Positions 2,898 through 23,358 of a stretch of 23,358 nucleotides of DNA are shown here, piece by piece. Every line of letters begins with the position of its first letter. Position 1 is the first letter of the stretch. Made by a program: the position numbers and the translations under genes. The stretch is from the sequence record NZ_AP018531.1. One strand, written 5' to 3'. The notes under the pieces were generated by a model that saw only the letters and a program-made list of their open reading frames with translations, did not search any database and was not told where the DNA came from. The stretch is from a plasmid.

Positions 2898-2925
2898 ACT
2901 CAGGGAAGGAGATACAGTTAATATT

Positions 2926-5754: not shown

Positions 5755-5778
5755 GTTCTCCACCTCTTTCAACTTTGT

Positions 5779-5860
5779 AAAGTTATAACTGTTTAACGTT
5801 ACTCTTATTATATACCTGTGCAGTTATAACGTCAAGACTGTGTAACTTTATAACGTTATT
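5779..5860. repeat. Iteron/parS-like cluster of GTTATAAC(G) palindromic repeats between rep and parA
   Basis: Copies at about 5782, 5823 and 5848, plus AACGTTA half-sites. The same 9-12-mer (GTTATAACGTTA) recurs at 8337-8381. Confidence 0.6.
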
Positions 5861-6145
5861 TCTTTCTATTGGTTCAGAGATTCATTCAAACCGTGTATTT
5901 TCTGCTCTTTTCTCTCCTTTTCTGTCAGGAAGATTGAGTAGTGAAGTTTCAATAAAGAAGTTTTAATAGGTAAGGATTTTAGTATATCAGCCTGTTTTGC
6001 ATCTGCTCAAAAAGCATCTTGTCTTTCAGCATACTGCCTGTAAACAGAGTACCCTGTAAAATCAGGGTAATGGTATGGCAGACAAAGAAAAATGACGGTC
6101 TTTCTGCCGTCATCGGTGTTTGGGGATGGAAATATGATTTTCCGA

Positions 6146-6179
6146 GCACGACCAAAAGCCATGAGGTCAATCATGGCTT
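6146..6179 (-). terminator. Intrinsic terminator after rep
   Basis: Perfect 9-bp stem AAGCCATGA / TCATGGCTT, loop ggtcaa. On the minus strand it is followed by TTTTGGTCG. A second hairpin (GACGGTCTTTCTGCCGTC) with a minus-strand T-run lies at about 6095-6125. Confidence 0.5.
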
Positions 6180-6185
6180 AAAAGG

Positions 6186-10668: not shown

Positions 10669-10760
10669 TGAAGAGTGGTGATTTTCTCCACTCTTTCTCT
10701 TTTGCGGGTATACAGAAAAAGAGTGGAAAGCGCTTCACTCTCCACTCTTAAATCTTCACT
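10669..10760. terminator. Pair of hairpins in the convergent gap between the ATPase and iolI (bidirectional terminators)
   Basis: AGAGTGGtgattttctCCACTCT followed by TTCTCTTTTG. Also AAAAAGAGTGgaaagcgcttCACTCTccactctt. Confidence 0.4.
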
Positions 10761-10768
10761 CTGTGAAA

Positions 10769-11641
10769 TCAGTCCGCCCAGTACTTTGCAACATGTGCCT
10801 TGGTAACCTCAGCGGCCTTCTTGATATTCTCCTCGTTGGACAGCTTGTAGTAGTCCGGACGGAACACCTCCATGGTGCAAACGTCGCCTTCAAAGCCGAT
10901 TTTCTTGAGGGTATCTGCGTAACGCTTGTGGTCGAGGCAGTCGCCCGGCTCGCCCGGCCACAGACGCTTCTCGTCGTTGTTGTAAGCAGCGCCGCACGGC
11001 ATATTCTCCATGCCGTTCAGGTGCCATACGAAAATCTTCTTGCCGTCAGCCTTCTCGAGAGCAGCCCACTCGGAAGCCATTGCATGGAAGTGGTACTGGT
11101 CGAGGGTGATGCCGACGAGCGGATGATCTACCTCAGTAACGATGTCGTAAGCGTACTCGAAGCGGTTGATGGACATGGTCGGTGCGCCGCAGAACTCGAT
11201 GGACAGCTTGATGCCGTGCGGCTCAACCTTCTTTACCATCTCCTTGAGAACAGCAACAGCATCAGCCTTGATCTCGTCAACGGTAGCCGGAACGGTCAGA
11301 TCCATGGACGGAACGACAACGATCATCTTGCAGCCCAGCTTGTTGCAGTCTGCGATGATCTGGTCGAGCTTTGCCATAACGGCGTCCTTTTCCTCCTGGG
11401 TCTGCTTCATGTTGAAGAAGATCAGAGCGTTGTAGGACAGCATCTTCAGGTGATGCTTCGGATCAGCAAACCATGCGCCGAGATCGTCGATGGTGTACTT
11501 GCCGGCAGCGATCTCGCGGTCGAGGCACTCGGACTGGATGTCGATGTAGTCAAAGCCGTACTTCTCGCACAGGTCGAGGTCTTCAAGTACGGAGTGGTTT
11601 TCGCAGAAACGGTTGCAGCCTTCGTTAAAACCGATTTTCAT
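10769..11641 (-). CDS. iolI: Inosose isomerase IolI (2-keto-myo-inositol isomerase; xylose-isomerase-like TIM barrel)
   Basis: Blocks align along the whole length with B. subtilis IolI from memory: MKIGFNE / MKLCFNE, LDLCEKYGFDYIDI / LELCEKHGYDYIEI, DQYHFHAMAS / DSFHFHAMGS, LEKADGKKIFVWH / LKQADGKKIFIYH, EVFRPDYYKLSNEE / ELFRPEYYKLTAEE. RBS AAAGGAG. Confidence 0.8.
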   Translation of the reverse strand: MKIGFNEGCNRFCENHSVLEDLDLCEKYGFDYIDIQSECLDREIAAGKYTIDDLGAWFADPKHHLKMLSYNALIFFNMKQTQEEKDAVMAKLDQIIADCNKLGCKMIVVVPSMDLTVPATVDEIKADAVAVLKEMVKKVEPHGIKLSIEFCGAPTMSINRFEYAYDIVTEVDHPLVGITLDQYHFHAMASEWAALEKADGKKIFVWHLNGMENMPCGAAYNNDEKRLWPGEPGDCLDHKRYADTLKKIGFEGDVCTMEVFRPDYYKLSNEENIKKAAEVTKAHVAKYWAD

Positions 11642-11779
11642 AGCAGTAACTCCTTTTAACGTATCAATTTCGCGTTGTAAAACGCGGTATAGTGGTTAAG
11701 GTGATATGCAAGGGCAGTAAAGCAGGAAGCTCTGCCACCCTTGCGAGTGAGTAGCAATGAATAGAAAATATGAGGTGGA

Positions 11780-12796
11780 TTACTTCTTGTAGAAGTCCGG
11801 GGTGCCGCCGGTAACAACCTTCTCCGGCACACCGGAGGTCTGGGACTTAACCAGAGCGTCAGCGGTGATGGAAGCAACGTAGCCGTCCCAAGCAGAGGAG
11901 CCGCCGGTCTCACCCTTGAGTGCGTGGTCAACCCAGTCCTGAATCTCTACATCGTAAGAATCGATGAAGCGCAGGATCCAGTTGTCCTCGATCTTGGTGG
12001 AAACCTCGTTAGCGTAGCGAACGGTCGGGAAGGACGGGCACGGCAGGTTTACAACGCCGTTCTCACATACAACCTCGCAGTTGATGTCGTAGCCGAAGCC
12101 GCAGTTTACGTTAACCTCGAGCATGTTGATGATGCCGCCCTTGGTCTTCATGATCATGATCTGCGGGTCCTTCAGCGCGTTCTTAACCTTGCTGTTGGTC
12201 TTCGGCATGATGCACTGAACCTCGTCCCACTCGTCGTTTACCAGCCACGGCAGAACGTCGATCTCGTGGATTGCGGTATCGGTAACAGCCATTGCGGTGG
12301 TGTAGTCATCGGCAACGCCGTCTGCACGGTGGGTGCACTTGATCACCATCGGGGCACCGAACTTGCCGGAGTCGATCAGCTCCTTGACCTGACGGTAGCC
12401 GCGGTCGTAACGGCGCATGAAGCCAACCTGTACGAGGTGCTTGCCGCCTGCCATCTCGGCCTCAACGATCTCCTTGCCGTCAGCAGCGGTGTTAGCCAGC
12501 GGCTTCTCGGAGAATACCGGCTTGCCGGCCTTGATCGCTGCCAGAACCGGACCCTTGTGGAACTGACCCGGGGTGGTAACTACAACAGCGTTTACGTCCG
12601 GATCGTTGATTGCTTCGTTGAAATCGGTGTAAACCTTGGTGCCGGCGCCGGCGATCTCAGCGCCCTTCTTTGCACCTTCTTCAAATACGTCGCATACAGC
12701 AACGATGCGTGCATTGCGGATGCGGTTCTGGATACGCTCGATGTGCTCACGGCCGATCATGCCGCAGCCGATCAGTGCAATGTTCAGATTTTCCAT
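11780..12796 (-). CDS. iolG: myo-Inositol 2-dehydrogenase IolG (Gfo/Idh/MocA family); start at MENLNIALIG
   Basis: Long collinear match to B. subtilis IolG from memory: LVQVGFMRRYDRGY, DDYTTAMAVTDTAIHEIDVLPWLVNDEW, LKDPQIMIMKTKGG, VNCGFGYDINCEVV, SYDVEIQDWVD, SAWDGYVASITADALVKSQTSG, PDFY. The ATG at 12796 has AAAGGA 9 nt upstream. The ATG at 12808 has none. Confidence 0.85.
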   Translation of the reverse strand: MENLNIALIGCGMIGREHIERIQNRIRNARIVAVCDVFEEGAKKGAEIAGAGTKVYTDFNEAINDPDVNAVVVTTPGQFHKGPVLAAIKAGKPVFSEKPLANTAADGKEIVEAEMAGGKHLVQVGFMRRYDRGYRQVKELIDSGKFGAPMVIKCTHRADGVADDYTTAMAVTDTAIHEIDVLPWLVNDEWDEVQCIMPKTNSKVKNALKDPQIMIMKTKGGIINMLEVNVNCGFGYDINCEVVCENGVVNLPCPSFPTVRYANEVSTKIEDNWILRFIDSYDVEIQDWVDHALKGETGGSSAWDGYVASITADALVKSQTSGVPEKVVTGGTPDFYKK

Positions 12797-12936
12797 GATA
12801 AAGCTCATCCTTTCAAAATATGCCGCTGTACGGCAGAGTTCAAGTCTAATGGATTATGTGCGAGTATTTCGGGAGCCGCAGCATTGCTGCGACCCCTGAA
12901 AACTCGGAAAGAGAAGAGAGATTGTGTGTGTCTGTT

Positions 12937-13920
12937 TTACGCGCGCTTTGCGTTCTTGCGCATGTCGAGTACAACCGAACCGACAATGATAACGCCCTTG
13001 ACAATGTTGGTCATGTTATCGTCTACCTTCAGCATAACCAGACCGTTATTGATAACGCCAAGGATCAGGATACCTGCCAGAACACCGGATACGCGGCAGA
13101 TACCGCCGGTGTGGGAGGTGCCGCCTACGGTAGCCGCAGCGATAGCGTCTAGCTCGTAGTTCAGGCCGGAGTTGGCCGGGTCAGCCGAACCTGCACGGCC
13201 TGCCAGCAGCATACCTGCAACAGCCGCACAAACCGAGCACCATACATAAACCATGATGAGGTTCTTTTCTACATTGATGCCAGCAACGCGGGCAGCCTGA
13301 TCGTTGCCGCCGATGGCATACACGTTTTTGCCGAAGCGGGTCTGCGTCAGCAGGAAGGCCGAGATCGCAAACATAACGAAGAATACCAGAATGATGACCG
13401 GAACCGAGCCGATTTTAGCAGAGCCAAGGAAACGGAACTCCGAGGACAGGGTGGAAACCGGGCGGCTGGTGTACATTTTTGCGCTTGCGCGGCAGATCAG
13501 CTGTGCGCCGAGCGTTGCGATGAAGGGCGGAATCTTGGTGTACGCGATGATCGCACCGTAAATAGCGCCGATGCCTGCGCCGATTGCCAGACCGATCAGA
13601 ATAACCAGCGGTGCGGGCAGGGTGCCCAGACCGGGGAATACTGCGTTGGCATAATCTGCCGGCTGAACCAGAGATGCCGTGATGCAGGCAACCAGGCCGG
13701 CCGATGCGCCGATCGTCAGGTCGATACCCTTGGACAGGATCGCGAACATAACGCCGAAGGCCAGAATACCCTTGACGGCCTCACCGGAGAGCAGCGTCAG
13801 CAGGTTGTTTACGGTGAAGAAACTGGGCTGTGCAACACCCATGATAATGACCATAGCGATCAGTACCAGCCAGATCGAGTTCTGCGACAGGAATTTTTTC
13901 TTGTCAAACGTCTTTTGCAT
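12937..13920 (-). CDS. ABC sugar transporter permease (CUT2/RbsC-like, BPD_transp_2)
   Basis: 327 aa, about 9-10 hydrophobic segments, typical monosaccharide ABC permease pattern. 18 nt downstream of the ATPase gene. Confidence 0.85.
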   Translation of the reverse strand: MQKTFDKKKFLSQNSIWLVLIAMVIIMGVAQPSFFTVNNLLTLLSGEAVKGILAFGVMFAILSKGIDLTIGASAGLVACITASLVQPADYANAVFPGLGTLPAPLVILIGLAIGAGIGAIYGAIIAYTKIPPFIATLGAQLICRASAKMYTSRPVSTLSSEFRFLGSAKIGSVPVIILVFFVMFAISAFLLTQTRFGKNVYAIGGNDQAARVAGINVEKNLIMVYVWCSVCAAVAGMLLAGRAGSADPANSGLNYELDAIAAATVGGTSHTGGICRVSGVLAGILILGVINNGLVMLKVDDNMTNIVKGVIIVGSVVLDMRKNAKRA

Positions 13921-13938
13921 ACCATTTACCCTTCTTTC

Positions 13939-15450
13939 TTATTGCTCATCAGCAGCGGGCTGGTAAGGAACCTCGCTGGTAGCGTATTTCAGGATCAGCT
14001 CGGACGAGAAATCCTTGCGATCTACGATTGCGGTCATCGTGCCTTCATGCATGACCACGATGCGGTCGGACATACCCATAACTTCGGGCAGCTCGCTCGA
14101 GATCATGATGATCGCCTTGCCTTCGCCGGCCAGCTTGGTGATCAGCGAGTGGATTTCGGCCTTGGCGCCTACGTCGATACCGCGGGTCGGCTCGTCTACG
14201 ATCAGGATGTCCGGATCGGTCAGCAGCCAGCGGCCTACCAGAACCTTCTGCTGATTACCGCCGGAAAGGTTCTTGATGGGGGTGTCGATCGTCGGTGTTT
14301 TGGTATTGAGCTTACGCACATACTCGTCGGTATCCTCGCGCATCTTCTTGTGATTGAGCGGGAAACCGTAGTTTTTCAGGCTGGCAAGCACGGTATTGTC
14401 CTTGATGCTCAGCATACCGACAATGCCGTTGCCGCGTCGGTCCTCGGTCAGCAGGGCGATCTTGTGGGCGATGGCGTGCTCGGGGGACTTGATGTGCAGC
14501 TCCTCGCCGTCCTTATAGACCTTGCCGCCGGTGATATGGCGCATACCGAAAATAGCCTCTGCCGTTTCGGTACGGCCTGCGCCGACCAGACCGGCCATGC
14601 CCAGAATTTCACCGCGGTGCAGCTCGAACGATACGTTCTTTACCGCATGACCGGCGGAAAGGTTCTCGACCTTCAGAATGGTATCTCCGATCGGGCAATC
14701 CACCTTGGGGAACATATTGGAAACCTCACGGCCTACCATAAGCTGAATCAGTTTATCTACGTTCAGGTTTTCCGCGCGGTCGCTGGCGATGTACTCGCCG
14801 TCGCGATATACGGTGATATCATCCGAAATGCGGAAAATTTCATCCATTTTATGCGAAATATAAATGATTGCTACGTTCTTCTTTTTCAGTTCTTCGATGA
14901 TGCGGAACAGATGCTCAACCTCGGTTTCGGTCAGGGAGGAGGTCGGCTCGTCCATGATTACGATCTTGCTGTCATACGAAACCGCCTTTGCGATTTCAAC
15001 CATCTGCATTTTTGCAACCGTCAGGTTGCCCATCTTTTCATCCGGATCAACATCCAGATTCAGGCGCTGGAACAGTTCGATGCTGTCCTGACGCATTTTC
15101 TTGTGATCAATGATCAGGCCCTTGCGCGGTGCGCGGCCCAGCCAGAGGTTTTCGCTGACACTGCGTTCCGGAACCGGCGATAATTCCTGATGGATCATTG
15201 AAATGCCGGAGTTCAGCGCTTCCAATGTGGTTTTGAAATGGATTTCCTTGCCGTCAAAAACGATCTTGCCCGATGTGGGCGGATGGATGCCGATCAGGCA
15301 TTTCATCAAAGTTGATTTACCTGCGCCGTTTTCTCCCATCAGGGTATGTACGGTACCGGGGCGCACCTTGAGCTGTACGCCTTTCAACGCACGCACGCCG
15401 GGGAAATCCTTGACGATATCGGTCATCTCCAGGATATACTCTTGACTCAC
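13939..15450 (-). CDS. Sugar ABC transporter ATP-binding protein, duplicated ABC domains (CUT2, RbsA/MglA-like). GTG start.
   Basis: Walker A GENGAGKST in domain 1 and a second LSGG signature (NLSGGNQQKV) in domain 2, plus Walker B IIMDEPT / LIVDEPT. Confidence 0.9.
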   Translation of the reverse strand: MSQEYILEMTDIVKDFPGVRALKGVQLKVRPGTVHTLMGENGAGKSTLMKCLIGIHPPTSGKIVFDGKEIHFKTTLEALNSGISMIHQELSPVPERSVSENLWLGRAPRKGLIIDHKKMRQDSIELFQRLNLDVDPDEKMGNLTVAKMQMVEIAKAVSYDSKIVIMDEPTSSLTETEVEHLFRIIEELKKKNVAIIYISHKMDEIFRISDDITVYRDGEYIASDRAENLNVDKLIQLMVGREVSNMFPKVDCPIGDTILKVENLSAGHAVKNVSFELHRGEILGMAGLVGAGRTETAEAIFGMRHITGGKVYKDGEELHIKSPEHAIAHKIALLTEDRRGNGIVGMLSIKDNTVLASLKNYGFPLNHKKMREDTDEYVRKLNTKTPTIDTPIKNLSGGNQQKVLVGRWLLTDPDILIVDEPTRGIDVGAKAEIHSLITKLAGEGKAIIMISSELPEVMGMSDRIVVMHEGTMTAIVDRKDFSSELILKYATSEVPYQPAADEQ

Positions 15451-15484
15451 TGCTTTTCACCCCAATATCTCTGCGTTTTTTTAG

Positions 15485-15510
15485 GAAGGGGACATGTGGA
15501 AATGTCCCCT
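15485..15510. other. Intra-operon stem-loop between the binding-protein and ATPase genes
   Basis: Perfect 10-bp stem AAGGGGACAT / ATGTCCCCTT, loop gtggaa. There is no U-tract on the coding (minus) strand, so it is probably an mRNA stabiliser or partial attenuator rather than a terminator. Confidence 0.4.
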
Positions 15511-15532
15511 TCGCAACATTCAGTGTCGGAAT

Positions 15533-16537
15533 TTAGTCGTAATCTGCTACGTTGTCGATGGTAACCGGCTCGAACGGTACCCAGATGATGAACTCGTTCT
15601 CGTCGTCTACTTCATAGCCGGTGCCCTCTGCGATCGGCTTGCCGTCGATCAGGTTTGCAGCTGCCTGCAGGGAAGCGCGGCCCTGACCCTCTGCGTTCTG
15701 GAATACGGTCATAGCGAGGGTGCCGTCCTTGATAGCCTGACGGCCGTCAGCGGTTGCGTCGATGCCGACGATCGGAACGGACTTCGGGTCCAGACCCTGC
15801 TGCTGCATTGCTTCGACTGCGCCGAGTGCCATTGCATCGTTGTTGGAGATGATGCAGTCGTACTTGGTGGTCTTGAGCAGCGGAGAGATCATGTCCATTG
15901 CGGTTGCACGGTCATAATCGGCTGCCAGCGGAGCAGCGGCTGCGGTTGCCTTGATGCCGTTGTCCTCCAGTGCCTTGAGCACGGATGCGGTACGGTTGGT
16001 GGTGGAGGTCTGACCGAGGATGCCGTTGAGCATCAGGTAGGAGATATCGGTCTTGCCCTGATCCTTAAAGAACTTTGCGAGGAACTCGCCCTGGAATGCG
16101 CCGGAGGTCATTTCGTCGGAGCCGACGTAAACAGCCTTCTCATTCAGTACGGAGGGATCGCCCGGGAAACGGTTTACGAATACGACCGGAACATCGCCTG
16201 CGGCCTCGATACACTGTGCAGCGGTCTCGGGGTCTACCATGTTGATGATGATGGCATCTTCACCTGCGGTAACCGAGGATTCGATGTACTGGATCATCTT
16301 GCTGGTGTCACTGTTGGCATCCTGGGTGGTCAGGTTGATGCCGGTGTCCTTTGCAGCGGCCTGAGCGGCTGCCTCCATTTCGCTGAGCCACTCATCGCGC
16401 TGGCTCATGATCAGCGTTACCTTGTGGCCGCTGCCGCCGTCTGCGCTGCCGCCCTGCTGTGCGCCACCGCCACAGCCTGCCAGCATGGATGCCATCATTG
16501 CCGATGCAATCAATCCTGCGAAAAGTCTTTTTTTCAT
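15533..16537 (-). CDS. Sugar ABC transporter substrate-binding lipoprotein (RbsB-like periplasmic binding protein fold)
   Basis: Signal peptide with lipobox LAGCGG, then a Peripla_BP-like sequence. First gene of the transporter operon. RBS GAGG. Confidence 0.85.
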   Translation of the reverse strand: MKKRLFAGLIASAMMASMLAGCGGGAQQGGSADGGSGHKVTLIMSQRDEWLSEMEAAAQAAAKDTGINLTTQDANSDTSKMIQYIESSVTAGEDAIIINMVDPETAAQCIEAAGDVPVVFVNRFPGDPSVLNEKAVYVGSDEMTSGAFQGEFLAKFFKDQGKTDISYLMLNGILGQTSTTNRTASVLKALEDNGIKATAAAAPLAADYDRATAMDMISPLLKTTKYDCIISNNDAMALGAVEAMQQQGLDPKSVPIVGIDATADGRQAIKDGTLAMTVFQNAEGQGRASLQAAANLIDGKPIAEGTGYEVDDENEFIIWVPFEPVTIDNVADYD

Positions 16538-16715
16538 TTGCTTTTACCTCATCTTTCTCAACTTTTTTCTTAGCCGTACACGTTCACATTTTTGAAAAAT
16601 GCGATTTACGCTTGCCTTGATTTAGTTTTACACTCTTTTTCGATGTGCGTCAACCGGATTTTTGAATTTTCACCAAATCACACAGACGAATCTTGCGAAA
16701 ACTGGTGATTCTGTC

Positions 16716-16730
16716 TGCACAAAATTGTGA
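16716..16730. promoter_or_regulatory. Operator-like near-palindrome TGCACAAAATTGTGA upstream of the ABC transporter operon
   Basis: One centre mismatch from perfect symmetry. Nearly identical to the site at 16974-16988. Confidence 0.35.
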
Positions 16731-16973
16731 TTTTATAAGCTTTGCACGACAGAGCGGGGGAATCGCTTATGCAAAACTACCCGCCTCAGATGCAGGATCT
16801 GGCTGTTGGTTCAATCTCATAACAACTCGGTATTCGTTTCGGATTTCTCGTGTTTTGCTCGTTTTACGGCGTTTACAGCAGACACATTGTATGAAAATAT
16901 GAACAAAACACGGAAGGTCCGGAAAAGAGTGCATTTTTGCGTGCACGGCTCGAATGAGCAGAATCCGTACACG

Positions 16974-16988
16974 TGCACAATATTGTGA
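16974..16988. promoter_or_regulatory. Operator-like palindrome TGCACAATATTGTGA (12-bp core CACAATATTGTG is perfect) upstream of the LacI-family gene
   Basis: Read directly. About 100 bp upstream of the lacI-family start, in the 550-bp divergent intergenic region. Confidence 0.4.
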
Positions 16989-17088
16989 ATACTGCTTTAT
17001 TCACTTTAGATATAGACTTATTATGGGTATTATGTTATGCTTTAACTATAAAAACGGGAAAAGCCCGTTCTGACAGAGGTGATATCAT

Positions 17089-18135
17089 ATGGCAATTACC
17101 CTGAATCAAATTGCCGAGATTTGCGGTGTGTCCCGCGGTACAGTCGATCGGGCACTTCATAATAAAGGAAATGTTCGCCCTGCGGTGGCGGAGCGGATCA
17201 AGGCGGTAGCCAACGAATATGGCTACACCCCCAACCGTGCCGGACTGGCACTGTCCCGCACATCGCATCCGATTCGCATCGGCGTGATCATGATTTCGGT
17301 GCAGACTCCGTTCATGCAGATCGTTCTGGATGCCGCCCGGCGCGAAACCCGCCGTCTGGCTGCGTTCAGCGTGGAGGTCATCTTCCGGCTGTCGCCCTCG
17401 CTCGATCCGGTCGAACAGGTCTCGATGATCGAGAATCTGGTCGAGCAGCATCATATCAGTGCGCTGGCGATCACGCCGCTCGACTGTCTGCTGGTCGAAA
17501 CCAAAATCAACGAGCTGATCGACCAACGCGGAATACCGGTCGTTACGTTTAACACCGATCTGCCCAACAGCCGTCGGCTGTGCTATGTCGGGCAGGAAAA
17601 CATTTCTTCCGGCCGTACGGTGGCCGAGCTGATGCGTCTGGTGACGCGGGAGAGTGGCACGGTGGCTACGATCATTACGCCCTGTATGTATCACAGTGCG
17701 TACCGCGAACGTCTGAAGGGCTTTAAGGAGGAGCTGCTTACCCCTGACTCGCCGCTTCAGCTGCAGGAGGTCACGCTGCCGAACGATGACAGCAATGTGG
17801 TTTACGAGCATACGCTCCGTCTGCTGCAGGAGACTCCCGAGCTGACCGGTATCTACGCGATCACGCCGGGTTATGCGGGCGCATGCAGCGCGCTGGTCGA
17901 TTCCGGCCGCGCACGGGGGGTGCACCTGATCATGCACGATGAGATCCCCGCCAACCTGTACGAGCTTCGGCGCGGTGTTGCGGATTTTGTCATCGGGCAG
18001 GATGCGGTGCAGCAGGGCGCACTGCCGCTGTCCCTGCTGGCCGATTACATTCAACTCAAACAGCAGCCGCCGAAGGAGTTTTACCATACCGATATTCGGG
18101 TGCTGCTGCGGCACAATATCGAAAATTTGCTTTGA
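17089..18135 (+). CDS. LacI-family transcriptional regulator
   Basis: N-terminal HTH ITLNQIAEICGVSRGTVDRALHNKGNVRPAVAERIKAVANEYGYTPNRAG, then a periplasmic-binding-protein-like effector domain. RBS GAGGTG. Confidence 0.85.
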   Translation: MAITLNQIAEICGVSRGTVDRALHNKGNVRPAVAERIKAVANEYGYTPNRAGLALSRTSHPIRIGVIMISVQTPFMQIVLDAARRETRRLAAFSVEVIFRLSPSLDPVEQVSMIENLVEQHHISALAITPLDCLLVETKINELIDQRGIPVVTFNTDLPNSRRLCYVGQENISSGRTVAELMRLVTRESGTVATIITPCMYHSAYRERLKGFKEELLTPDSPLQLQEVTLPNDDSNVVYEHTLRLLQETPELTGIYAITPGYAGACSALVDSGRARGVHLIMHDEIPANLYELRRGVADFVIGQDAVQQGALPLSLLADYIQLKQQPPKEFYHTDIRVLLRHNIENLL

Positions 18136-18153
18136 TCCGGGTCAGGAGGTATT

Positions 18154-18945
18154 ATGTCTGTTCCGCTTCCGGCATTTCGCCGTGTCAGACTAACACAGCA
18201 ATGTGTGATTCATCCGCAGGATAAGGGCGGCAACTATCTGCCTTGCGCCTCGGAGGATTGGGTGCTGTTTGTTTCGCTTGCTGCGGACGGGGAGAAGATC
18301 ATTCTGCGGACCGAGCACCTCTGTCTGCCGATCAAACCCGGCGGCGCGCTGCTGCTGCCGCCGAATGTCTGTCACGAGCTGCCGTTCGTACAGGCACCCT
18401 GTCTGATGCTGGGCTTTTCCGCCGCGAATGACGGACAGGCGGTGTTTGAGTTTCCGCAGTTACAGGGAACACCGGCATGGATGTTTCTGCTGCTGCTCTA
18501 CTCGGAACAGACCACGGCTACCGCCCGGACACCGCTTCTGGAGGCGCTGCTGATGCAGATGGCGCCTATGGCGCATGGCTTCGAGCTGTGTGCGCCGGAT
18601 GCCGCATTCTCGCTTGCAACCGAGGTATTGCAGCATTTGAACCTGTGCTTTGCCGAGGAGCTTTCGCTGACCGAGCTGACCAATCGGTTTCACGTTTCGA
18701 CCAGCCACATAATCCATATGTTCAAGGCGCAGTTCGGCCTGCCGCCCATTCAGTATATGGTGCGCCGCCGGATCGGGGAAGCGCAGCATCTGCTCCGCAC
18801 AACGGAGGACAGTGCGGGCGATATTGCCGGTCAGGTCGGCATGATCAACCGCAATTACTTTTACCGGATGTTCAAGCGTCTAGTGGGGGTATCGCCGGTT
18901 CGATACCGCGAGGTCATTGGCGAACGCCCGGATATGCTGGCTTGA
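18154..18945 (+). CDS. AraC-family transcriptional regulator (cupin-like N-domain plus C-terminal AraC HTH)
   Basis: C-terminal ...IAGQVGMINRNYFYRMFKRLVGVSPVRYRE AraC signature. RBS CAGGAGGT. Starts 18 nt after the lacI-family stop. Confidence 0.85.
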   Translation: MSVPLPAFRRVRLTQQCVIHPQDKGGNYLPCASEDWVLFVSLAADGEKIILRTEHLCLPIKPGGALLLPPNVCHELPFVQAPCLMLGFSAANDGQAVFEFPQLQGTPAWMFLLLLYSEQTTATARTPLLEALLMQMAPMAHGFELCAPDAAFSLATEVLQHLNLCFAEELSLTELTNRFHVSTSHIIHMFKAQFGLPPIQYMVRRRIGEAQHLLRTTEDSAGDIAGQVGMINRNYFYRMFKRLVGVSPVRYREVIGERPDMLA

Positions 18946-19196
18946 GAAAACGGCTTTACGGGATCGAGCAGGACCCGATGGAAATCTGGTCTACGCAGTA
19001 CGCTGCCATGCTGGAGGCGCTCGCAGCCGCGGATGTCCGTTAAATACTTGGGTCTACGTCAAGCGTTTCGGTATCCTGGCAAATTTTATCTGGTTCATTA
19101 CTGTTACCTGCACAAGACACAACCCCTGGTTTCCGGTTCTGATCCGGTTTCCGTGGTCTAAATAATCAAGACGGCGGAAACCTCTGCATCATACGC

Positions 19197-19288: not shown

Positions 19289-19861
19289 TCACGCCTGCCG
19301 CCGCTTTCTCTCCCGGATGAGCGTGGACTTGCTGATGCCGGTCAGTTTGACGACCTGCGCGTAGGAATGGTCCTCAAGCAGAGCCATTGCATGGTCAAGC
19401 TGCTCGGTGTCGAACTTGGGCGGGCGGCCCTCACGGAAATTCGGGTCGGTGGCGCGCGCGACCGCCTTGCCCTCCTGCGTGCGCTGCACGATCATGTCGC
19501 GCTCGAACTGCGCAAACGACAGCAGCACGTTGCGCAGCAGCGTGTTGACCGAGTCGTTGGACAGGATGCCGAGGTTCAATACGTTGATGGTGATGCCCTC
19601 GTCGATCATGTCGGTGATCATGCCGGACGCCTGCGACACGGACCGCGCCAGCCGGTCGAGCCGTGTCACGATCAGCACATCGCCGCGCCGCAGCTGCGCC
19701 CGCAGCCTGTCCCATTCCGGTCGGTCCATCTTGGTGCCGGTGAACGTGTCCGTGTAGATTTTTTCCGCGCCCGCCGCCGTCAGCGCCGCCTGCTGCGCGT
19801 CCAGACTGTTGCCGTCGCGCGCCTGCGTTTTGGTGGATACTCTCGCGTAGCCGAATATCAT
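19289..19861 (-). CDS. Serine recombinase / resolvase (about 190 aa) with C-terminal HTH
   Basis: N-terminus MIFGYARVSTKTQ (catalytic Ser), then the typical resolvase core and C-terminal HTH ([18 protein letters not shown]). GGAGG RBS 6 nt upstream of the ATG at 19861. The 401-aa ORF in the track is an artefactual 5' extension. Confidence 0.9.
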   Translation of the reverse strand: MIFGYARVSTKTQARDGNSLDAQQAALTAAGAEKIYTDTFTGTKMDRPEWDRLRAQLRRGDVLIVTRLDRLARSVSQASGMITDMIDEGITINVLNLGILSNDSVNTLLRNVLLSFAQFERDMIVQRTQEGKAVARATDPNFREGRPPKFDTEQLDHAMALLEDHSYAQVVKLTGISKSTLIRERKRRQA

Positions 19862-19985
19862 GCCAATCCCTCCGTTTTCACGGTTTTGACACCGCGAGTT
19901 TTGAATATAGGTTTTGATACCTCTATTATAATTTATGACGCTGAGTTTTGCAACCGGTGGCGAAACTTGAAGGTTTTGGATACCA
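19862..19985. promoter_or_regulatory. res-like region: at least six GTTTTG(A) motifs, including three GGTTTTGAYACC copies, immediately upstream of the resolvase
   Basis: ccGTTTTCacGGTTTTGACACCgcgaGTTTTGAATATaGGTTTTGATACC...aGTTTTGCAACC...aaGGTTTTGGATACC, read directly. Resolvase res sites lie 5' of the resolvase gene and have multiple subsites. Confidence 0.4.
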
Positions 19986-20825: not shown

Positions 20826-21869
20826 TTGAAAACGATTACTTCCGTCGAACTTGCTAAATTAGCTGGTGTGTCGCAATCAACGGTTTCCCGTTGCCTGAAT
20901 GACAGTCCGCTGGTTTCAGAAGAAACCAAGGCAAGAGTCAAAAAGCTGGCGGAAGAATACTCCTTTCAGTTTAACACTAACGCACGGGGGTTAAAAACCA
21001 ACCGCACCGGTGTGATCGGATATGTATTCTCAGAGGATTTTACCGGCTTTGCAAACCATTATATTCAAAGTGACATTTACTATCGCATACGTATGCAGCT
21101 CGTAAAGGAAGGGCTGGATCTGGTGCCGGTGTTCGATGAAGGGAAATACGGTGAGTTTTTTTCCATCGAAAAGAGTATCAGCAATCGACGGTTTGATGCC
21201 CTGATCTTTAACCGACCGCAGGTGGGTGAGCGAGTCAAAAGCCTACTGCATGAAACAAAAATTCCATTTATCTATATTTACGATACGAATGAATCACTGA
21301 ATGAGTCGTATATGATCGCACCGAGCCATTCACAGATTGGCGGTCTGGTCGGCAAGGCGTTTTGCGAAGCTGGCTATACACGATTTGTGGAAATTATCGG
21401 ACCGCAGGATCGAATCGACGTTATACATAAACATGAAGCTTTTGCACGTGTTTTGCATCAGCATGGGCATAAGCTGCCAGATACGCACATTCTGCATGCA
21501 GATTACAACCTTAAGCAGGCTACGCAGCAGGTTTTGGAGCATATTGAACTGTTCCAGCCGGGTACAGCGTGTTTTGCGCAGAACGATATGATGGCATTAG
21601 GCGCTCTGGAAGCACTGCGCGAGCAGGGCATTCAGGTGCCGGATGATGTGGCTTTGATTGGTTCGGATAATATCCCGATGGGCAGCTGGTTTACGCCGCA
21701 TTTAACCACTGTGGCAGTAGATTATGACAGGATTATCAATTTAACAGTAGAATGGGTCATGGCAATGGCATCGAACAAACTGCCGGACAAACTGCCGGAT
21801 ACCTACCGGTATATACTGGACAGCAAATTGATCATCCGAGATACATTCTGTCCCTCAGCAGGAGAATAA
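20826..21869 (+). CDS. LacI-family transcriptional regulator (TTG start)
   Basis: HTH ITSVELAKLAGVSQSTVSRCLNDSPLVSEETKARVKKLAEEYSFQFNTNARGL, then a sugar-binding-like domain. AAGAGGTG RBS 7 nt before the TTG. Confidence 0.8.
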   Translation: MKTITSVELAKLAGVSQSTVSRCLNDSPLVSEETKARVKKLAEEYSFQFNTNARGLKTNRTGVIGYVFSEDFTGFANHYIQSDIYYRIRMQLVKEGLDLVPVFDEGKYGEFFSIEKSISNRRFDALIFNRPQVGERVKSLLHETKIPFIYIYDTNESLNESYMIAPSHSQIGGLVGKAFCEAGYTRFVEIIGPQDRIDVIHKHEAFARVLHQHGHKLPDTHILHADYNLKQATQQVLEHIELFQPGTACFAQNDMMALGALEALREQGIQVPDDVALIGSDNIPMGSWFTPHLTTVAVDYDRIINLTVEWVMAMASNKLPDKLPDTYRYILDSKLIIRDTFCPSAGE

Positions 21870-21882
21870 TTCTTTTATTCTC
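21862..21882. other. Perfect 9-bp-stem hairpin spanning the second lacI-family stop codon (GGAGAATAA ttctt TTATTCTCC)
   Basis: Read directly. No flanking U-tract. A second copy of the ATACGTATGCAAA motif lies immediately downstream. Confidence 0.4.
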
Positions 21883-21889
21883 CGCAATT

Positions 21890-21904
21890 GAATACGTATG
21901 CAAA
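21890..21904. promoter_or_regulatory. Second copy of the ATACGTATGCAAA operator-like motif, about 45 bp upstream of tctC
   Basis: gAATACGTATGCAaa shares a 13-mer with 20797-20812. Confidence 0.4.
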
Positions 21905-21948
21905 CGCGGAAAAGCGTTTCAATTATAAAAAGAAAGAAGGAAAAGCAA

Positions 21949-22944
21949 ATGAAAGGAAAAAAATTGATGGCTATGCTGATGGCAGGTTCCATGCTGCTGG
22001 CAGGTCTGACGGGCTGCGGCGGTTCCACTGCAAAGGGCGGCGGTGCTGCGGCAAGTGCGGATGATTACCCGAATGGTCCGGTAACAGTCATTTGTCCGTG
22101 GGGTGTCGGCGGCGGTGCCGATGTCATTGCCCGCAAGATTTCGGAGGTGGCCAAGAATTATTTTGATCAGCCGATCATTGTAGAAAATCACACAGGCGCT
22201 TCCGGCACCATCGGCATGATGGATGCCATGGATGCGGATGCGGACGGTTATACTATGGTCGTCGCCAACGGTCCGTTATTTTCGTTGACTCCGAAGTACA
22301 TCGATGTATCCTATGATCTTTCTGATTTCACTATGCTGCGCGGTATGCGTCAGGTTTCGCTGATGATCCTCACTAATCCGCAGAAATCCAGCATCAAGAC
22401 GTTTGATGATCTGATTAACTACGGCAAAACGCATAAGATCACGTATGCAACTTCCTCCGGCCCGGGCGGTGATCAGTACGTTGTTTCTTCTGCAATGTTC
22501 AAGTCGCTTGGTATCGAAGCGGAGCCGGTCGTTATGGGCAGCGAGGCAGAATCGATCAATGCAGTGGTTTCCGGTCAGGTAGACTGCGGTCTGGGTACGC
22601 CTCCGGCATACTACTCGCATCAGGAAGAGGGTACGATCCAGGCGGTCGCAACTTTCTATCCGGAAACGGTTCAGACTCCGTACGGTGAAGTAAAGTCCAT
22701 CAAGGACTGGGATGTTGATGTTGAATTTGCCGGCATGGACTGTCTGGCTGTTCGCTCGGACGTTCCGCAGGAGATCGTAGACAAACTGAATGCAATGCTC
22801 GATGACGTATATGCCGATTCCAAGTTCACCGGTTTTATGGACGAGATGGGTTATCCGCTGTGGGATGCCAAGGGTGACGAAGTGACGAAGTTTATCGAGG
22901 ATCAGATGGACAGCATGGACAAATACGTGGAGATGCTCCAGTAA
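21949..22944 (+). CDS. tctC: Tripartite tricarboxylate transporter substrate-binding lipoprotein (TctC / Bug family)
   Basis: Start at MKGKKLMAMLMAG with a GAAGG RBS 8 nt upstream. Lipobox LTGCGG. The mature region matches TctC-family patterns (ICPWGVGGGADVIARKI..., HTGASGTIG). Confidence 0.85.
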   Translation: MKGKKLMAMLMAGSMLLAGLTGCGGSTAKGGGAAASADDYPNGPVTVICPWGVGGGADVIARKISEVAKNYFDQPIIVENHTGASGTIGMMDAMDADADGYTMVVANGPLFSLTPKYIDVSYDLSDFTMLRGMRQVSLMILTNPQKSSIKTFDDLINYGKTHKITYATSSGPGGDQYVVSSAMFKSLGIEAEPVVMGSEAESINAVVSGQVDCGLGTPPAYYSHQEEGTIQAVATFYPETVQTPYGEVKSIKDWDVDVEFAGMDCLAVRSDVPQEIVDKLNAMLDDVYADSKFTGFMDEMGYPLWDAKGDEVTKFIEDQMDSMDKYVEMLQ

Positions 22945-22983
22945 CAGGCTGGTCTGTTTAATCTGGTGTGAGAGGTGACAAGA

Positions 22984-23358
22984 TTGAAAGTAAAGCTAAA
23001 TTCGAATATGATAACAGGCGTTCTGTTTCTGATCGTTTCTGTTGCCCTGCATATTCTGATACCATCGCAGATCCGGACGTTTGAAACCAGCGCAGTGACT
23101 GCTGCAACAGTTCCGACGCTTCTGATCCGCGGCATGATACTTTGCAGCGTGATCCTGCTGGTGCAGGGTATCCTGTCCAAGGAAAAGACCGAATACACGA
23201 TTTCAGGAGCCATTTTCACTAAAGAAAATCTGCTGCGGCTGAAACCGGTAATCTATATTGCCATGCTGATCGCATACGCGCTGCTGCTTCCGCATATTGG
23301 ATTTATCATTTCCTCGCTGCTGCTTGCCAATGGCATTCTGCTGTATTTCGGTACGAGA
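22984..23358 (+). CDS. tctB: TctB-family small permease, N-terminal 125 codons, open to the window end
   Basis: TTG start with AGGTG RBS 6 nt upstream. About three hydrophobic helices. The frame runs exactly to the last base of the window and continues in frame into bases 1-84. Confidence 0.7.
   Translation, partial: MKVKLNSNMITGVLFLIVSVALHILIPSQIRTFETSAVTAATVPTLLIRGMILCSVILLVQGILSKEKTEYTISGAIFTKENLLRLKPVIYIAMLIAYALLLPHIGFIISSLLLANGILLYFGTR

What the first reader, a model, noticed from the sequence alone, without database searches (positions are those of the whole stretch)
10769..18945. Truncated inositol module: iolG and iolI only, with a dedicated CUT2 ABC transporter and two divergent regulators, on a probable plasmid
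IolG and IolI are recognisable block by block against the B. subtilis enzymes. None of the downstream myo-inositol catabolic genes (iolE/D/B/C/J/A) is present. The pair on its own is the known interconversion route between myo-inositol and D-chiro-inositol via 2-keto-myo-inositol and 1-keto-D-chiro-inositol. With its own binding-protein-dependent transporter and LacI-family plus AraC-family regulators, this looks like a portable feeder module. It would import an inositol isomer (for example D-chiro-inositol or pinitol-derived inositol) and convert it into the isomer a chromosomal iol pathway can use. The substrate assignment is inference.
Basis: partly seen in the sequence, partly recalled or inferred. 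Interest (0 to 1): 0.6.

Follow-up and report, generated by a model that had tools for sequence, protein, structure and literature searches.

The report
Mobile inositol uptake cassette, gut Agathobaculum
A 23-kb plasmid-like circle from the common human gut butyrate producer Agathobaculum carries a portable 8-kb gene cassette that probably imports an inositol sugar-alcohol and performs the first two conversion steps; it matters because human variants in the gut inositol transporter SLC5A11 are known to shift the abundance of this same bacterium.

Summary
Window 10769-18945 holds, on the minus strand, one operon: lipoprotein binding protein, fused ATPase, permease (a CUT2 ABC importer), an IolG homologue (51% identical to B. 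subtilis IolG) and an IolI homologue (42%). LacI- and AraC-family genes are transcribed divergently. No iolB/C/D/E/H/J is in the window.

The window closes into a 23,358-bp circle with Rep-like, ParA and RHH genes. The host is Agathobaculum butyriciproducens or a close relative.

New here:
- The cassette (10716-18972) is a discrete unit found in at least six genomic contexts.
- Its iolG-iolI are 98-99% identical to a chromosomal symporter-iolG-iolI locus of the host. So the element adds an importer and regulators, not new enzymes.
- Some scaffolds show the circle inserted between two iolG-iolI copies.
- The transporter genes come in two alleles that differ at three predicted ligand-contact residues.
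- Transporter-iolG-(iolH)-iolI without downstream genes is the usual layout across Oscillospirales.

The feeder reading is partly supported. I could not establish a downstream pathway in the host. A replicated human GWAS links SLC5A11, the gut myo-/D-chiro-inositol transporter, to this species and names no bacterial genes. Known enzymology in a new mobile arrangement; moderate interest.

The parts
10716..18972 (.). The mobile cassette as a whole (8.26 kb): regulators, control region, ABC importer, iolG, iolI, terminator
   Evidence: Contiguous block at about 98% identity in L108, L111, L113 and L115, with unrelated DNA on both sides. The break at 18972 is the same in every context; the iolI-side break is at 10716, 10747 or 10611. 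No terminal repeats at the boundaries.
10719..10749 (-). Intrinsic-terminator-like hairpin ending the operon
   Evidence: 14-bp stem followed by a T-rich tail (TTTTCTGT), 20 nt after the iolI stop codon; coincides with the cassette boundary.
10769..11641 (-). iolI homologue (inosose isomerase-like TIM barrel, 290 aa)
   Evidence: PF01261. B. subtilis IolI 1I60: E 2e-62, residues 1-288, 42% identity; next PDB match 36 bits. The residues aligned to E142, D174, H200 and E246 of 1I60 are kept (their role as metal ligands is from memory). The exact protein occurs in 6630 collection blocks.
11780..12808 (-). iolG homologue (NAD+-dependent myo-/D-chiro-inositol dehydrogenase-like, 342 aa; other assemblies aa)
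   Evidence: PF01408 and PF02894. B. subtilis IolG 3MZ0: 351 bits, 51% identity. NF052679: 420 bits, below its 540 cut-off. K97, D172, H176, D35, GFMRRYD and Y235 kept; Y233F and N157A changed.
12937..13920 (-). ABC permease (CUT2 type)
   Evidence: PF02653. Best NCBIfam match MglC, 288 bits, below its 386 cut-off. Only 83% DNA identity to the other cassette allele.
13939..15450 (-). ABC ATPase with two fused nucleotide-binding domains
   Evidence: Two PF00005 stretches. Best match MglA, 652 bits, below its 828 cut-off. 82% DNA identity to the other allele.
15533..16537 (-). Lipoprotein substrate-binding protein (334 aa)
   Evidence: PF13407; lipobox LAGC. Nearest solved structure is E. coli MglB, 147 bits. 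Pocket residues D48, W50, N122, R123, Q176, S178, R182, Y208, N233, D260, Q280. 70% DNA and 69% protein identity to the other allele. The exact protein occurs in 2211 blocks.
16538..17088 (.). Divergent control region
   Evidence: Palindrome (a) TGCACAAWATTGTGA at 16716-16730 and 16974-16988. Second conserved element (b) CCGTACACGT(G/T)CAC at 16574-16587 and 16965-16978. Conserved promoter-like TTGACG (16653-16648), 17-nt spacer, TAAAAC (16630-16625) on the minus strand. All survive in A. desmolans and Agathobaculum sp. P7918, where the region is about 75% identical.
17089..18135 (+). LacI-family regulator (348 aa)
   Evidence: PF00356 plus PF13407. 96-97% DNA identity across cassette variants.
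18154..18945 (+). AraC-family regulator (263 aa)
   Evidence: PF12833 and PF00165 at the C-terminus.
19289..19864 (-). Serine resolvase/invertase (about 191 aa) next to the cassette
   Evidence: PF00239 starts at residue 213 of the 401-aa ORF. Homologues are called at 190-191 aa in other contigs and lie on either side of the cassette.
4700..7376 (-). Plasmid maintenance genes: Rep-like 6186-7376, ParA 4939-5772, RHH/Arc-like 4700-4939
   Evidence: Rep-like protein: 36% identity over residues 6-211 to DnaD-domain/Rep genes of Clostridium and Sarcina plasmids; PHROG 'replication initiation protein', E 1e-11. ParA: PF13614. RHH.
20826..23358 (+). Second cargo module, first part: LacI 20826-21869, TctC 21898-22944, TctB 22975-23358 (continues at 1-75)
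1..3720 (+). Second cargo module, continued across the circle junction: end of TctB 1-75, TctA 101-1606, FAD-dependent oxidoreductase 1620-2897, unknown 264-aa protein 2926-3720

Best explanation
The region is an 8.26-kb mobile 'entry' cassette for inositol isomers, carried on a 23.4-kb Rep/ParA element of Agathobaculum butyriciproducens or a very close relative.

Proposed mechanism:
1. A lipoprotein binding protein and a CUT2 ABC importer take up a cyclitol at low concentration.
2. IolG oxidises it with NAD+: myo-inositol to scyllo-inosose, and D-chiro-inositol to 1-keto-D-chiro-inositol.
3. IolI isomerises the chiro-ketone to scyllo-inosose.
4. A LacI-family and an AraC-family regulator, transcribed divergently, control the operon through two pairs of conserved sites around a conserved promoter.

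IolI is not needed for myo-inositol, yet it is almost always paired with IolG in these loci. So the selected substrate probably includes D-chiro-inositol or a derivative.

The element does not bring new enzymes. It gives a host that already has symporter-iolG-iolI a second, binding-protein-dependent importer, its own regulation and a second gene dose. It can recombine with the chromosomal iolG-iolI.

Shown: gene identities, conserved residues, cassette boundaries, mobility, circle closure and conservation of the sites. Inferred: substrate, direction of flux, which regulator binds which site, and what happens to scyllo-inosose afterwards.
For: Enzyme identity:
- full-length identity of 51% (IolG) and 42% (IolI) to the B. 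subtilis enzymes, far above any other solved structure.
- catalytic triad, motif III, Asp35 and Tyr235 (marker of the myo/D-chiro class) are kept.
- the B. subtilis route is documented.

Inositol context:
- IolG lies within two genes upstream of IolI in 68 of 74 species-level loci.
- in some relatives the same ABC-iolG-iolI unit heads clusters with IolH, IolD, an IolB-like protein and IolE (L081, L078, L074, L069).
- the window's binding-protein pocket type is the one found in those clusters, and it is invariant although the proteins are only 60-63% identical.
- in L097, whose cassette flank matches L001, the cassette lies next to a LacI<>IolE-ABC module.

Operon and regulation:
- a terminator-like hairpin follows iolI.
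- the operators and the promoter are conserved.

Mobility and carrier:
- one cassette, many contexts.
- circle closure plus Rep-like, ParA and RHH genes.

Host and ecology:
- the host is Agathobaculum.
- the allele that lowers ileal SLC5A11 expression and plasma myo-inositol raises A. butyriciproducens abundance.
- SMIT2 carries both myo- and D-chiro-inositol.
- Agathobaculum proteins were labelled from 13C-myo-inositol in hen gut cultures.
- Butyricicoccus was enriched in faecal phytate incubations that gave butyrate.
Against: - IolG misses both curated NCBIfam cut-offs (420 vs 540 bits; 199.5 vs 355 bits).
- IolG has Ala in place of Asn157, a residue I recall as substrate-contacting, and Phe in place of Tyr233.
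- The binding protein is closest to the glucose/galactose binder MglB (147 bits). It is only distantly like chain 4IRX (55 bits), which I recall from memory to be the Caulobacter myo-inositol-binding protein.
- No iolD/B/C/J was seen near any Agathobaculum locus, so the fate of scyllo-inosose in this host is unknown.
- The labelled Agathobaculum proteins and the GWAS signal could both arise from cross-feeding.
- No activity or binding was measured.
Confidence: 0.6

Rival explanations
1. The cassette works on a substrate that is not an inositol, such as a hexose, a glycoside or another polyol. An MglB-like importer would bring it in, the Gfo/Idh/MocA enzyme would oxidise a ring hydroxyl, and the TIM-barrel enzyme would isomerise or eliminate the keto product, as in the 3-keto-glycoside, levoglucosan or C-glycoside pathways.
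For: - The importer's best named matches are MglA, MglB and MglC.
- The binding protein keeps the D14/N91/R158/N211/D236 scaffold of the glucose/galactose binder.
- IolG is below the equivalog cut-offs and carries N157A.
- Some related loci use a glycoside-pentoside-hexuronide symporter instead.
- From memory, B. subtilis IolG also oxidises glucose.
Against: - Scores against levoglucosan dehydrogenase (68 bits), DgpA (78), glycoside 3-dehydrogenases (49-66) and 1,5-anhydrofructose reductase (69) are far below the 351 bits for B. subtilis IolG.
- IolI has no strong relative other than B. subtilis IolI.
- The same unit is embedded with IolD, IolE, IolH and an IolB-like protein in several relatives.
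- Three MglB ligand contacts (H152, D154, N256) are replaced.
Confidence: 0.12
2. The pair works as a stand-alone epimerase, or as the start of a route not yet described. The host has no canonical iolD/B/C/J. Either the cell interconverts inositol isomers without breaking them down, or scyllo-inosose or 1-keto-D-chiro-inositol enters a non-canonical anaerobic route to butyrate, perhaps through the IolE and extra dehydrogenases seen in other accessory modules.
For: - Only 7 of 79 species-level loci have IolE or IolD within 10 kb.
- Agathobaculum loci show none, apart from accessory IolE modules with three further Gfo/Idh/MocA genes.
- A non-canonical end of the pathway has just been reported in the related Dysosmobacter.
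- The hen stable-isotope study calls Agathobaculum an 'unexpected' labelled taxon.
Against: - Downstream genes need not be linked. In Anaerostipes an IolG/isomerase pair sits apart from the main cluster.
- Whole genomes could not be scanned, so absence is not shown.
- Pure epimerisation yields no energy for a fermenter.
- Dysosmobacter still uses IolE, IolD, IolB and IolC.
Confidence: 0.2
3. The circle is not a free plasmid. It is a chromosomal island flanked by two direct iolG-iolI repeats, and assemblers collapse it into a circular contig.
For: - In the ten longest contigs that carry the exact Rep protein, the backbone is joined to the chromosomal symporter-iolG-iolI locus.
- One 78-kb scaffold (L098 plus L109) runs chromosome, copy 1, backbone, cassette, copy 2, chromosome. 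The copies lie 23.47 kb apart, which is one window length.
- The two copies share about 1.5 kb with no differences, longer than a short-read insert.
Against: - Rep-like, ParA and RHH genes are intact and conserved.
- An independent 23,141-bp contig has the same circular order (L112).
- The same repeat makes the 'integrated' scaffolds just as uncertain.
- The two forms are not exclusive, since recombination between the repeats would interconvert them.
Confidence: 0.35

Closest known systems
B. subtilis iolG and iolI within iolABCDEFGHIJ (D-chiro-inositol entry route; Yoshida and co-workers, as summarised in PMC3176187)
   Same: Same two enzymes (51% and 42% identity), with the catalytic and specificity markers kept. 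In relatives the order transporter-G-(H)-I mirrors the iolF-G-H-I stretch of the Bacillus operon.
   Different: Here there is no iolA-E or iolJ in the unit and no iolH. The importer is a binding-protein-dependent ABC system, not an MFS carrier. From memory, B. subtilis IolR is a DeoR-type repressor, whereas here the regulators are LacI and AraC types. The unit is mobile.
Satellite IolG (AR1Y2_1057) plus inosose isomerase (AR1Y2_1058) of Anaerostipes rhamnosivorans (Bui et al. 2021, PMC8355322)
   Same: A gut Clostridia IolG/isomerase pair located apart from the main iol cluster. It is produced on myo-inositol and was read as the chiro-inositol entry.
   Different: Anaerostipes has a demonstrated full pathway to propionate. 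That paper's strain comparison attributes chiro-inositol conversion to a different IolG homologue (AR1Y2_0342), not to the 1057/1058 pair. The paper does not report a dedicated ABC importer, mobility or a plasmid. Sequences were not compared here.
Rhizopine catabolism (moc) locus on the Sinorhizobium symbiotic plasmid (from memory)
   Same: Plasmid-borne binding protein plus IolG-like dehydrogenase (MocA) plus TIM-barrel protein (MocC), feeding an inositol derivative into a chromosomal iol pathway.
   Different: Not homologous at family level. The rhizopine binding-protein model scores 28.8 bits against a cut-off of 420. Different phylum, different substrate (a methylated inosamine) and extra moc genes.
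Peribacillus sp. R9-11 plasmid pB, complete iol operon (NZ_CP133765.1)
   Same: The only PLSDB plasmid with a clear IolI homologue (38.7%), annotated as 2-keto-myo-inositol isomerase.
   Different: It carries the whole iolA-J pathway with MFS transporters, not a minimal entry cassette.
Dysosmobacter welbionis myo-inositol-to-butyrate pathway (Lee et al., Gut 2026, PMC13311982)
   Same: A gut butyrate producer of the family Oscillospiraceae that ferments inositol. It shows that inositol-to-butyrate fermentation occurs in gut butyrate producers of this group.
   Different: That pathway runs through IolG, E, D, B and C plus a recruited aldolase and is chromosomal. The paper does not mention IolI or chiro-inositol use.

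Membership tests
IolG, myo-inositol 2-dehydrogenase / D-chiro-inositol 1-dehydrogenase (group i of Ramp et al. 2022) | Gfo/Idh/MocA fold with N-terminal Rossmann domain | tested here: met
   PF01408, PF22725 and PF02894 all above their gathering scores.
IolG, myo-inositol 2-dehydrogenase / D-chiro-inositol 1-dehydrogenase (group i of Ramp et al. 2022) | Catalytic triad Lys97, Asp172, His176 (B. subtilis numbering) | tested here: met
   EKP, and D and H in TDTAIHEID, align without gaps to 3MZ0. The triad is defined in PMC9603128.
IolG, myo-inositol 2-dehydrogenase / D-chiro-inositol 1-dehydrogenase (group i of Ramp et al. 2022) | Motif III GF[M/N]RR[Y/F]D and motif V Y233-G-Y235, with Tyr235 as the myo/D-chiro marker; Asp35 for NAD+ | tested here: met
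   GFMRRYD is present. Motif V reads FGY, so Tyr235 is kept and Tyr233 is Phe. Asp35 is kept. Asn157 is Ala; its role is from memory.
IolG, myo-inositol 2-dehydrogenase / D-chiro-inositol 1-dehydrogenase (group i of Ramp et al. 2022) | Score above the curated equivalog cut-off | tested here: not met
   NF052679: 420 bits against 540. TIGR04380: 199.5 against 355. These are still by far the best-scoring families; the next scores 103 bits.
IolG, myo-inositol 2-dehydrogenase / D-chiro-inositol 1-dehydrogenase (group i of Ramp et al. 2022) | NAD+-dependent oxidation of myo- and D-chiro-inositol | not testable with these tools
   Needs an enzyme assay.
IolI, inosose isomerase | Xylose-isomerase-like TIM barrel with full-length similarity to B. 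subtilis IolI | tested here: met
   PF01261, 108.7 bits. 1I60: E 2e-62 over residues 1-288, 42% identity; next structure 36 bits. No IolI model appeared among the NCBIfam matches.
IolI, inosose isomerase | Metal-binding residues Glu142, Asp174, His200, Glu246 of 1I60/1I6N (list from memory) | tested here: met
   The aligned residues are E in SIEFCG, D in LDQYHFH, H in WHLNG and E in TMEVF.
IolI, inosose isomerase | Genetic linkage with iolG | tested here: met
   IolG lies within two genes upstream in 68 of 74 species-level loci that have upstream sequence.
IolI, inosose isomerase | [quoted passage not shown] | not testable with these tools
   Needs an enzyme assay.
CUT2 (carbohydrate uptake transporter 2) ABC importer | Peripla_BP_4 binding protein, one ATPase with two fused ABC domains, BPD_transp_2 permease | tested here: met
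   PF13407; two PF00005 stretches in 503 aa; PF02653.
Inositol-specific ABC importer (IbpA/IatABC type) | Binding protein orthologous to a solved myo-inositol binder | tested here: inconclusive
   Chain 4IRX scores only 55 bits; I recall it as the Caulobacter myo-inositol binding protein IbpA. The nearest match is MglB at 147 bits, with 3 of 11 ligand contacts non-conservatively replaced (H152Q, D154S, N256Q) and 3 more changed conservatively (F16W, K92R, W183Y). 4YO7 scores 118 bits; I recall it as inositol-bound, from memory only. Context supports inositol.
Complete iol catabolic operon | IolE, IolD, IolB, IolC and IolJ (and IolA) present | tested here: not met
   tblastn with Peribacillus IolB, C, D, E, H and J gives no hit in the window at E 1e-5 or below. 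No aldehyde-dehydrogenase, TPP-enzyme, PfkB, KduI or aldolase domain in any ORF of 80 aa or more that was scanned.
Plasmid | Closed circular map | tested here: met
   The TctB ORF spans the junction. The joined ends align without gaps at 99.3% to L009 and 98.8% to L005. An independent 23,141-bp contig has the same order. A repeat-collapsed island would give the same map.
Plasmid | Replication initiator and partition genes | tested here: met
   Rep-like protein: 36% identity over about half its length to Rep/DnaD-domain genes of clostridial plasmids, and a PHROG replication-initiation match. ParA and an RHH protein. No origin was identified.
Plasmid | Extrachromosomal existence | not testable with these tools
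   Short-read contigs cannot cross the 1.5-kb stretch with no differences. Integrated-looking scaffolds also exist.

The most novel reading that the evidence does not exclude
The transporter-iolG-iolI units of Agathobaculum butyriciproducens are the bacterial side of the replicated human SLC5A11 association. These units are the chromosomal symporter version and this mobile ABC version, whose binding-protein alleles are interchangeable. People who absorb less myo- and D-chiro-inositol in the ileum would feed this species. Strains carrying the high-affinity cassette would respond most. The two binding-protein alleles would select different cyclitols, for example free inositol versus D-chiro-inositol or pinitol-type compounds. 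Carbon would reach butyrate by a route lacking the canonical linked iolD/B/C/J genes. In some relatives a neighbouring corrinoid methyltransferase system would remove the methyl group from dietary methyl-inositols first.
Probability: 0.3. Interest if true: 0.75.

Novelty: new variant of a known kind. Interest (0 to 1): 0.45.

Why it matters
The enzymes and the chemistry are textbook. What is new is the packaging and where it sits:
- A minimal importer plus iolG plus iolI unit, detached from the rest of the pathway.
- It moves between backbones in a very common human gut butyrate producer.
- It recombines with a chromosomal twin.
- It comes with two importer alleles that differ in the predicted binding pocket.

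A genome-wide study of 16,017 people, replicated in 12,652, found that the allele lowering ileal expression of SLC5A11 raises this species (PMC12987725). SLC5A11 is the only apical intestinal carrier for myo- and D-chiro-inositol. That paper names no bacterial genes. These loci give a concrete, testable mechanism for one of the few replicated host-gene-to-gut-microbe links. They also provide gene-level markers, such as cassette presence and allele type, for re-analysing such cohorts.

It would also add a small, partly characterised catabolic plasmid for the Oscillospirales; searches of PLSDB and the paper library found none like it.

Tried and rejected
- Megablast of the cassette against PLSDB found nothing. 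Protein-level search found only two plasmids with an IolI homologue.
I got there through IolE cluster members instead.
- I searched IolD homologues hoping for an Agathobaculum-named hit. The top 120 are all at least 88% identical to the query and named Oscillibacter, Dorea or Lachnospiraceae. This says nothing about the host.
- I looked for terminal repeats or shared sequence at the two cassette boundaries and found none. The way the cassette moves is unresolved.
- Alternatives weighed and set aside on score: levoglucosan dehydrogenase (68 bits), DgpA C-glycoside oxidoreductase (78), glycoside and disaccharide 3-dehydrogenases (49-66), 1,5-anhydrofructose reductase (69), Thermotoga IolO epimerase for the TIM barrel (20), psicose epimerase (26), rhizopine binding protein (29).
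- The simple promoter scan was no better than shuffled sequence. The promoter I report rests on conservation.
- The pig culturomics paper and the Dysosmobacter paper do not mention Agathobaculum or IolI. Papers mentioning Agathobaculum with 'plasmid' do not describe this element.
- One Pfam call failed on a frameshifted ORF.

Full report
**What is in the window.** ORF listing and domain scans give a clear map. On the minus strand, from 16537 down to 10769, lie five genes:
- a binding protein with a lipoprotein signal (MKKRLFAGLIASAMMASMLAGC);
- a 503-aa ATPase with two ABC domains;
- a BPD_transp_2 permease;
- a Gfo/Idh/MocA dehydrogenase;
- a xylose-isomerase-like TIM-barrel protein.

Gaps between them are 82, 18, 128 and 138 nt. 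A 14-bp-stem terminator-like hairpin sits 20 nt after the last stop codon. A LacI-family gene (17089-18135) and an AraC-family gene (18154-18945) are transcribed divergently.

**Are the enzymes IolG and IolI?** Against all solved structures, the dehydrogenase matches B. subtilis inositol dehydrogenase best (3MZ0, 351 bits, residues 7-341, 172/335 = 51% identity). Next come a Salmonella homologue (310 bits) and the chains 4MIE/4MIO (276 bits), which I recall as the Lactobacillus casei myo-inositol enzyme. The next tier is at 113 bits or less; from memory it includes the L. casei scyllo-inositol dehydrogenase. DgpA and anhydrofructose reductase score 70-78 bits.

Lys97, Asp172 and His176 are kept. 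So are motif III (GFMRRYD), Asp35 (NAD+) and Tyr235. Ramp et al. use Tyr235 to separate myo/D-chiro enzymes from scyllo enzymes. Differences are Tyr233Phe and Asn157Ala. The curated NCBIfam cut-offs are not reached (420/540 and 199.5/355), so strict 'equivalog' membership fails although the family is unambiguous.

The TIM-barrel protein has one strong relative among solved structures, B. subtilis IolI (E 2e-62, full length, 42% identity). Everything else is at 36 bits or less. The four residues I recall as metal ligands are kept. The refutation test in the finding, clustering with non-inositol relatives, is therefore not met.

**Is it truncated?** I used the proteins of a complete iol operon on Peribacillus plasmid pB as tblastn queries. 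The window is hit only by IolG (52%) and IolI (39%). There is nothing for IolB, C, D, E, F, H or J.

**Carrier and host.** The window's ends join. A 152-aa TctB ORF runs through the junction, and the joined ends align without gaps at 99.3% and 98.8% to two independent contigs. The backbone has three maintenance genes:
- a 396-aa protein 36% identical over half its length to Rep/DnaD-domain genes of Clostridium and Sarcina plasmids, with a PHROG replication-initiator match;
- ParA;
- an Arc-like RHH protein.

A second cargo module (LacI, TctCBA, an FAD-dependent oxidoreductase and an unknown 264-aa protein) fills the rest.

A scan of one genome per species puts the IolI protein at 98-99% identity in Agathobaculum butyriciproducens DSM 100391 and an Agathobaculum MAG. 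It is 80-95% identical across Agathobaculum, Butyricicoccus, Oscillibacter and Intestinibacillus, and also in Paenibacillus oralis, Sinanaerobacter and Anaerotalea.

**The cassette is a discrete mobile unit.**
- The block 10716-18972 recurs at about 98% identity next to type III CRISPR and PemK genes, next to SLH-domain proteins, next to topoisomerase/Fic/HipA genes, next to phage integrases, and on the Rep/ParA backbone.
- The break at 18972 is the same everywhere.
- A 190-aa serine resolvase gene lies beside the cassette, on either side depending on context.
- There are no terminal repeats.

**The chromosome has the same enzymes.** In long contigs, including one of 769 kb, and in the type strain, LacI<>symporter (SSF family)-iolG-iolI lies among housekeeping genes. 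The window's iolG-iolI are 98-99% identical in DNA to that copy. So the element contributes an importer, regulators and dosage, not a new activity.

In the ten longest contigs with the exact Rep protein, the backbone is joined to this chromosomal locus. One 78-kb scaffold reads:
1. chromosome, symporter-iolG-iolI;
2. backbone;
3. AraC-LacI<>ABC-iolG-iolI;
4. chromosome.

The two copies lie 23.47 kb apart. That is what single-crossover (Campbell-type) insertion through the shared genes would give. The copies share about 1.5 kb with no differences, so short reads cannot distinguish insertion from a free circle plus chromosome. Both the 'plasmid' and the 'island' reading remain open.

**Two importer alleles.** Between cassette variants, identity differs sharply by segment:

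| Segment | DNA identity |
|---|---|
| iolI, iolG, control region, LacI, AraC | 95-99% |
| permease | 83% |
| ATPase | 82% |
| binding protein | 70% |

I mapped the eleven ligand contacts of E. coli glucose/galactose-binding protein; the residue list is from memory and the alignment is. This gives two pocket types:
- D-W-N-R-Q-S-R-Y-N-D-Q in the window, A. desmolans and eight other loci. It is invariant although those proteins are only 60-63% identical.
- D-F-N-R-L-H-R-Y-N-D-Q in the other allele, in Agathobaculum sp. P7918 and in Butyricicoccus pullicaecorum.

The first type is the one found in loci that also carry IolD, an IolB-like protein and IolE. That the two types bind different cyclitols is inference.

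**Regulation.** Aligning this region with loci that are about 75% identical shows islands of conservation:
- both palindromes;
- a second repeated element, CCGTACACGT(G/T)CAC, at 16574-16587 and 16965-16978;
- a TTGACG-17-TAAAAC promoter for the operon.

Which protein binds which element is not known. Symporter-type loci lack the palindrome.

**Wider pattern.** I called genes with a codon-usage model trained on the window's genes and clustered the proteins of 91 loci.
- IolG lies within two genes upstream of IolI in 68 of 74 species-level loci.
- The gene in front is a sodium:solute symporter (36 loci), an ABC system (11, plus divergent cases) or a glycoside-type symporter (6).
- A third TIM-barrel gene in 34-36 loci is the IolH orthologue (39-43% identical to Peribacillus IolH).
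- Only 7 of 79 loci have IolE or IolD within 10 kb.

So transporter-G-(H)-I standing alone is the rule here. It equals the iolF-G-H-I stretch of the Bacillus operon. A similar satellite pair is reported in Anaerostipes.

**What happens next in the host.** This is unknown. Accessory modules with IolE exist at about 97% protein identity to each other:
- LacI<>IolE-ABC, next to the cassette in L097, whose cassette flank matches L001;
- AraC<>symporter-dehydrogenase-IolE-dehydrogenase-dehydrogenase;
- a resolvase/toxin-antitoxin context.

I saw no IolD, IolB-like gene or IolC near any Agathobaculum locus and could not scan whole genomes (one search was uninformative). The related Dysosmobacter ferments myo-inositol to butyrate with IolG, E, D, B and C plus a recruited aldolase.

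**Ecology.**
- A Swedish-Norwegian GWAS found that the allele lowering ileal SLC5A11 expression and plasma myo-inositol raises A. butyriciproducens and its family. The association replicated, and the paper names no bacterial genes.
- SMIT2, the SLC5A11 product, is the only apical intestinal inositol carrier. It takes myo- and D-chiro-inositol with similar Km.
- Agathobaculum proteins were labelled from 13C-myo-inositol in hen gut cultures.
- Butyricicoccus rose in phytate incubations that yielded butyrate.

These fit an inositol-using lifestyle but do not prove direct use.

**Verdict.** The functional assignment is well supported by homology and context. The 'feeder into a chromosomal pathway' idea needs changing: it is an extra importer plus a duplicate of the host's own entry enzymes, with the downstream route unknown. 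The chemistry is known; the mobile minimal cassette with exchangeable importer alleles, and its link to a human genetic signal, are new. Interest is moderate.

Noticed in passing
window 22975-23358 joined to 1-75: A TctB gene is split by the window's ends, so the 23,358 bases form a closed circle. The joined ends match two independent contigs without gaps.
   Followed up: yes
L098 and L109 (same 78-kb scaffold, ERZ28617814 scaffold_356); also L099-L107, L114: The whole circle appears inserted between two iolG-iolI copies in the chromosome, 23.47 kb apart, as after a single crossover. The copies share about 1.5 kb with no differences, so short-read assemblies cannot prove it.
   Followed up: partly
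window 12937-16537 versus L001 5094-8705: Inside an otherwise 95-99% identical cassette, the three transporter genes are only 70-83% identical in DNA. The two binding-protein alleles differ at three predicted ligand contacts: W50/Q176/S178 versus F/L/H.
   Followed up: partly
L031 52-2622 and 10927-14719; L029 1166-9260; L081 18627-20648: In two Agathobaculum species and an Anaerovoracaceae MAG, genes of a corrinoid methyltransferase system lie next to iolG-iolI. Between them the three loci carry a B12-binding protein, a RACo activase, a URO-D-family methyltransferase, DUF1638, an unknown 430-490-aa protein and a PocR/AraC regulator. This may mean demethylation of methyl-inositols such as pinitol.
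   Followed up: partly
36 loci, e.g. L036 7596-8516, L081 10939-11859: A 306-aa TIM-barrel gene between or after iolG and iolI is the orthologue of B. subtilis-type IolH (39-43% to Peribacillus IolH). From memory, its function is unknown. It is absent from the window.
   Followed up: partly
window 20826-23358 and 1-3720: Second cargo module: LacI, TctC, TctB, TctA, a PF12831 FAD-dependent oxidoreductase and an unknown 264-aa protein with no family match. TctABC genes also lie near iolG-iolI in Oscillibacter loci (with a PdxA-like gene and a nickel-pincer isomerase) and in L022.
   Followed up: no
Also a conserved TTGACG-17-TAAAAC promoter at 16653-16625 on the minus strand.
   Followed up: partly
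L091 7151-12953; L095 7857-11981; L097 4428-10872: Other accessory inositol modules in the same gene pool: AraC<>symporter-dehydrogenase(376 aa)-IolE-two IolG-like dehydrogenases; and LacI<>IolE-ABC importer-TIM barrel, next to the cassette in L097 (its cassette flank matches L001).
   Followed up: partly
window 19289-20494: The 401-aa ORF is over-extended. The resolvase domain starts at residue 213, and most homologues elsewhere are 190-191 aa, though some contigs aa.
   Followed up: partly
window 8470-10313: A short GntR-family gene and an AAA_14/DUF4143 ATPase lie between Rep and the cassette. Some relatives have a DUF772 transposase fragment there instead of the GntR gene.
   Followed up: no
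L074 2207-3238: Sinanaerobacter has a gene resembling Thermotoga-type scyllo-inosose 3-dehydrogenase IolM (201 bits, below its 450-bit cut-off and below the 221 bits it scores against L-threonine 3-dehydrogenase) beside IolE and IolG. This hints at mixed pathway types.
   Followed up: no
L015-L090: IolI is unusually conserved: 80-95% protein identity across several families of Clostridia and in Paenibacillus oralis. This suggests horizontal spread.
   Followed up: no
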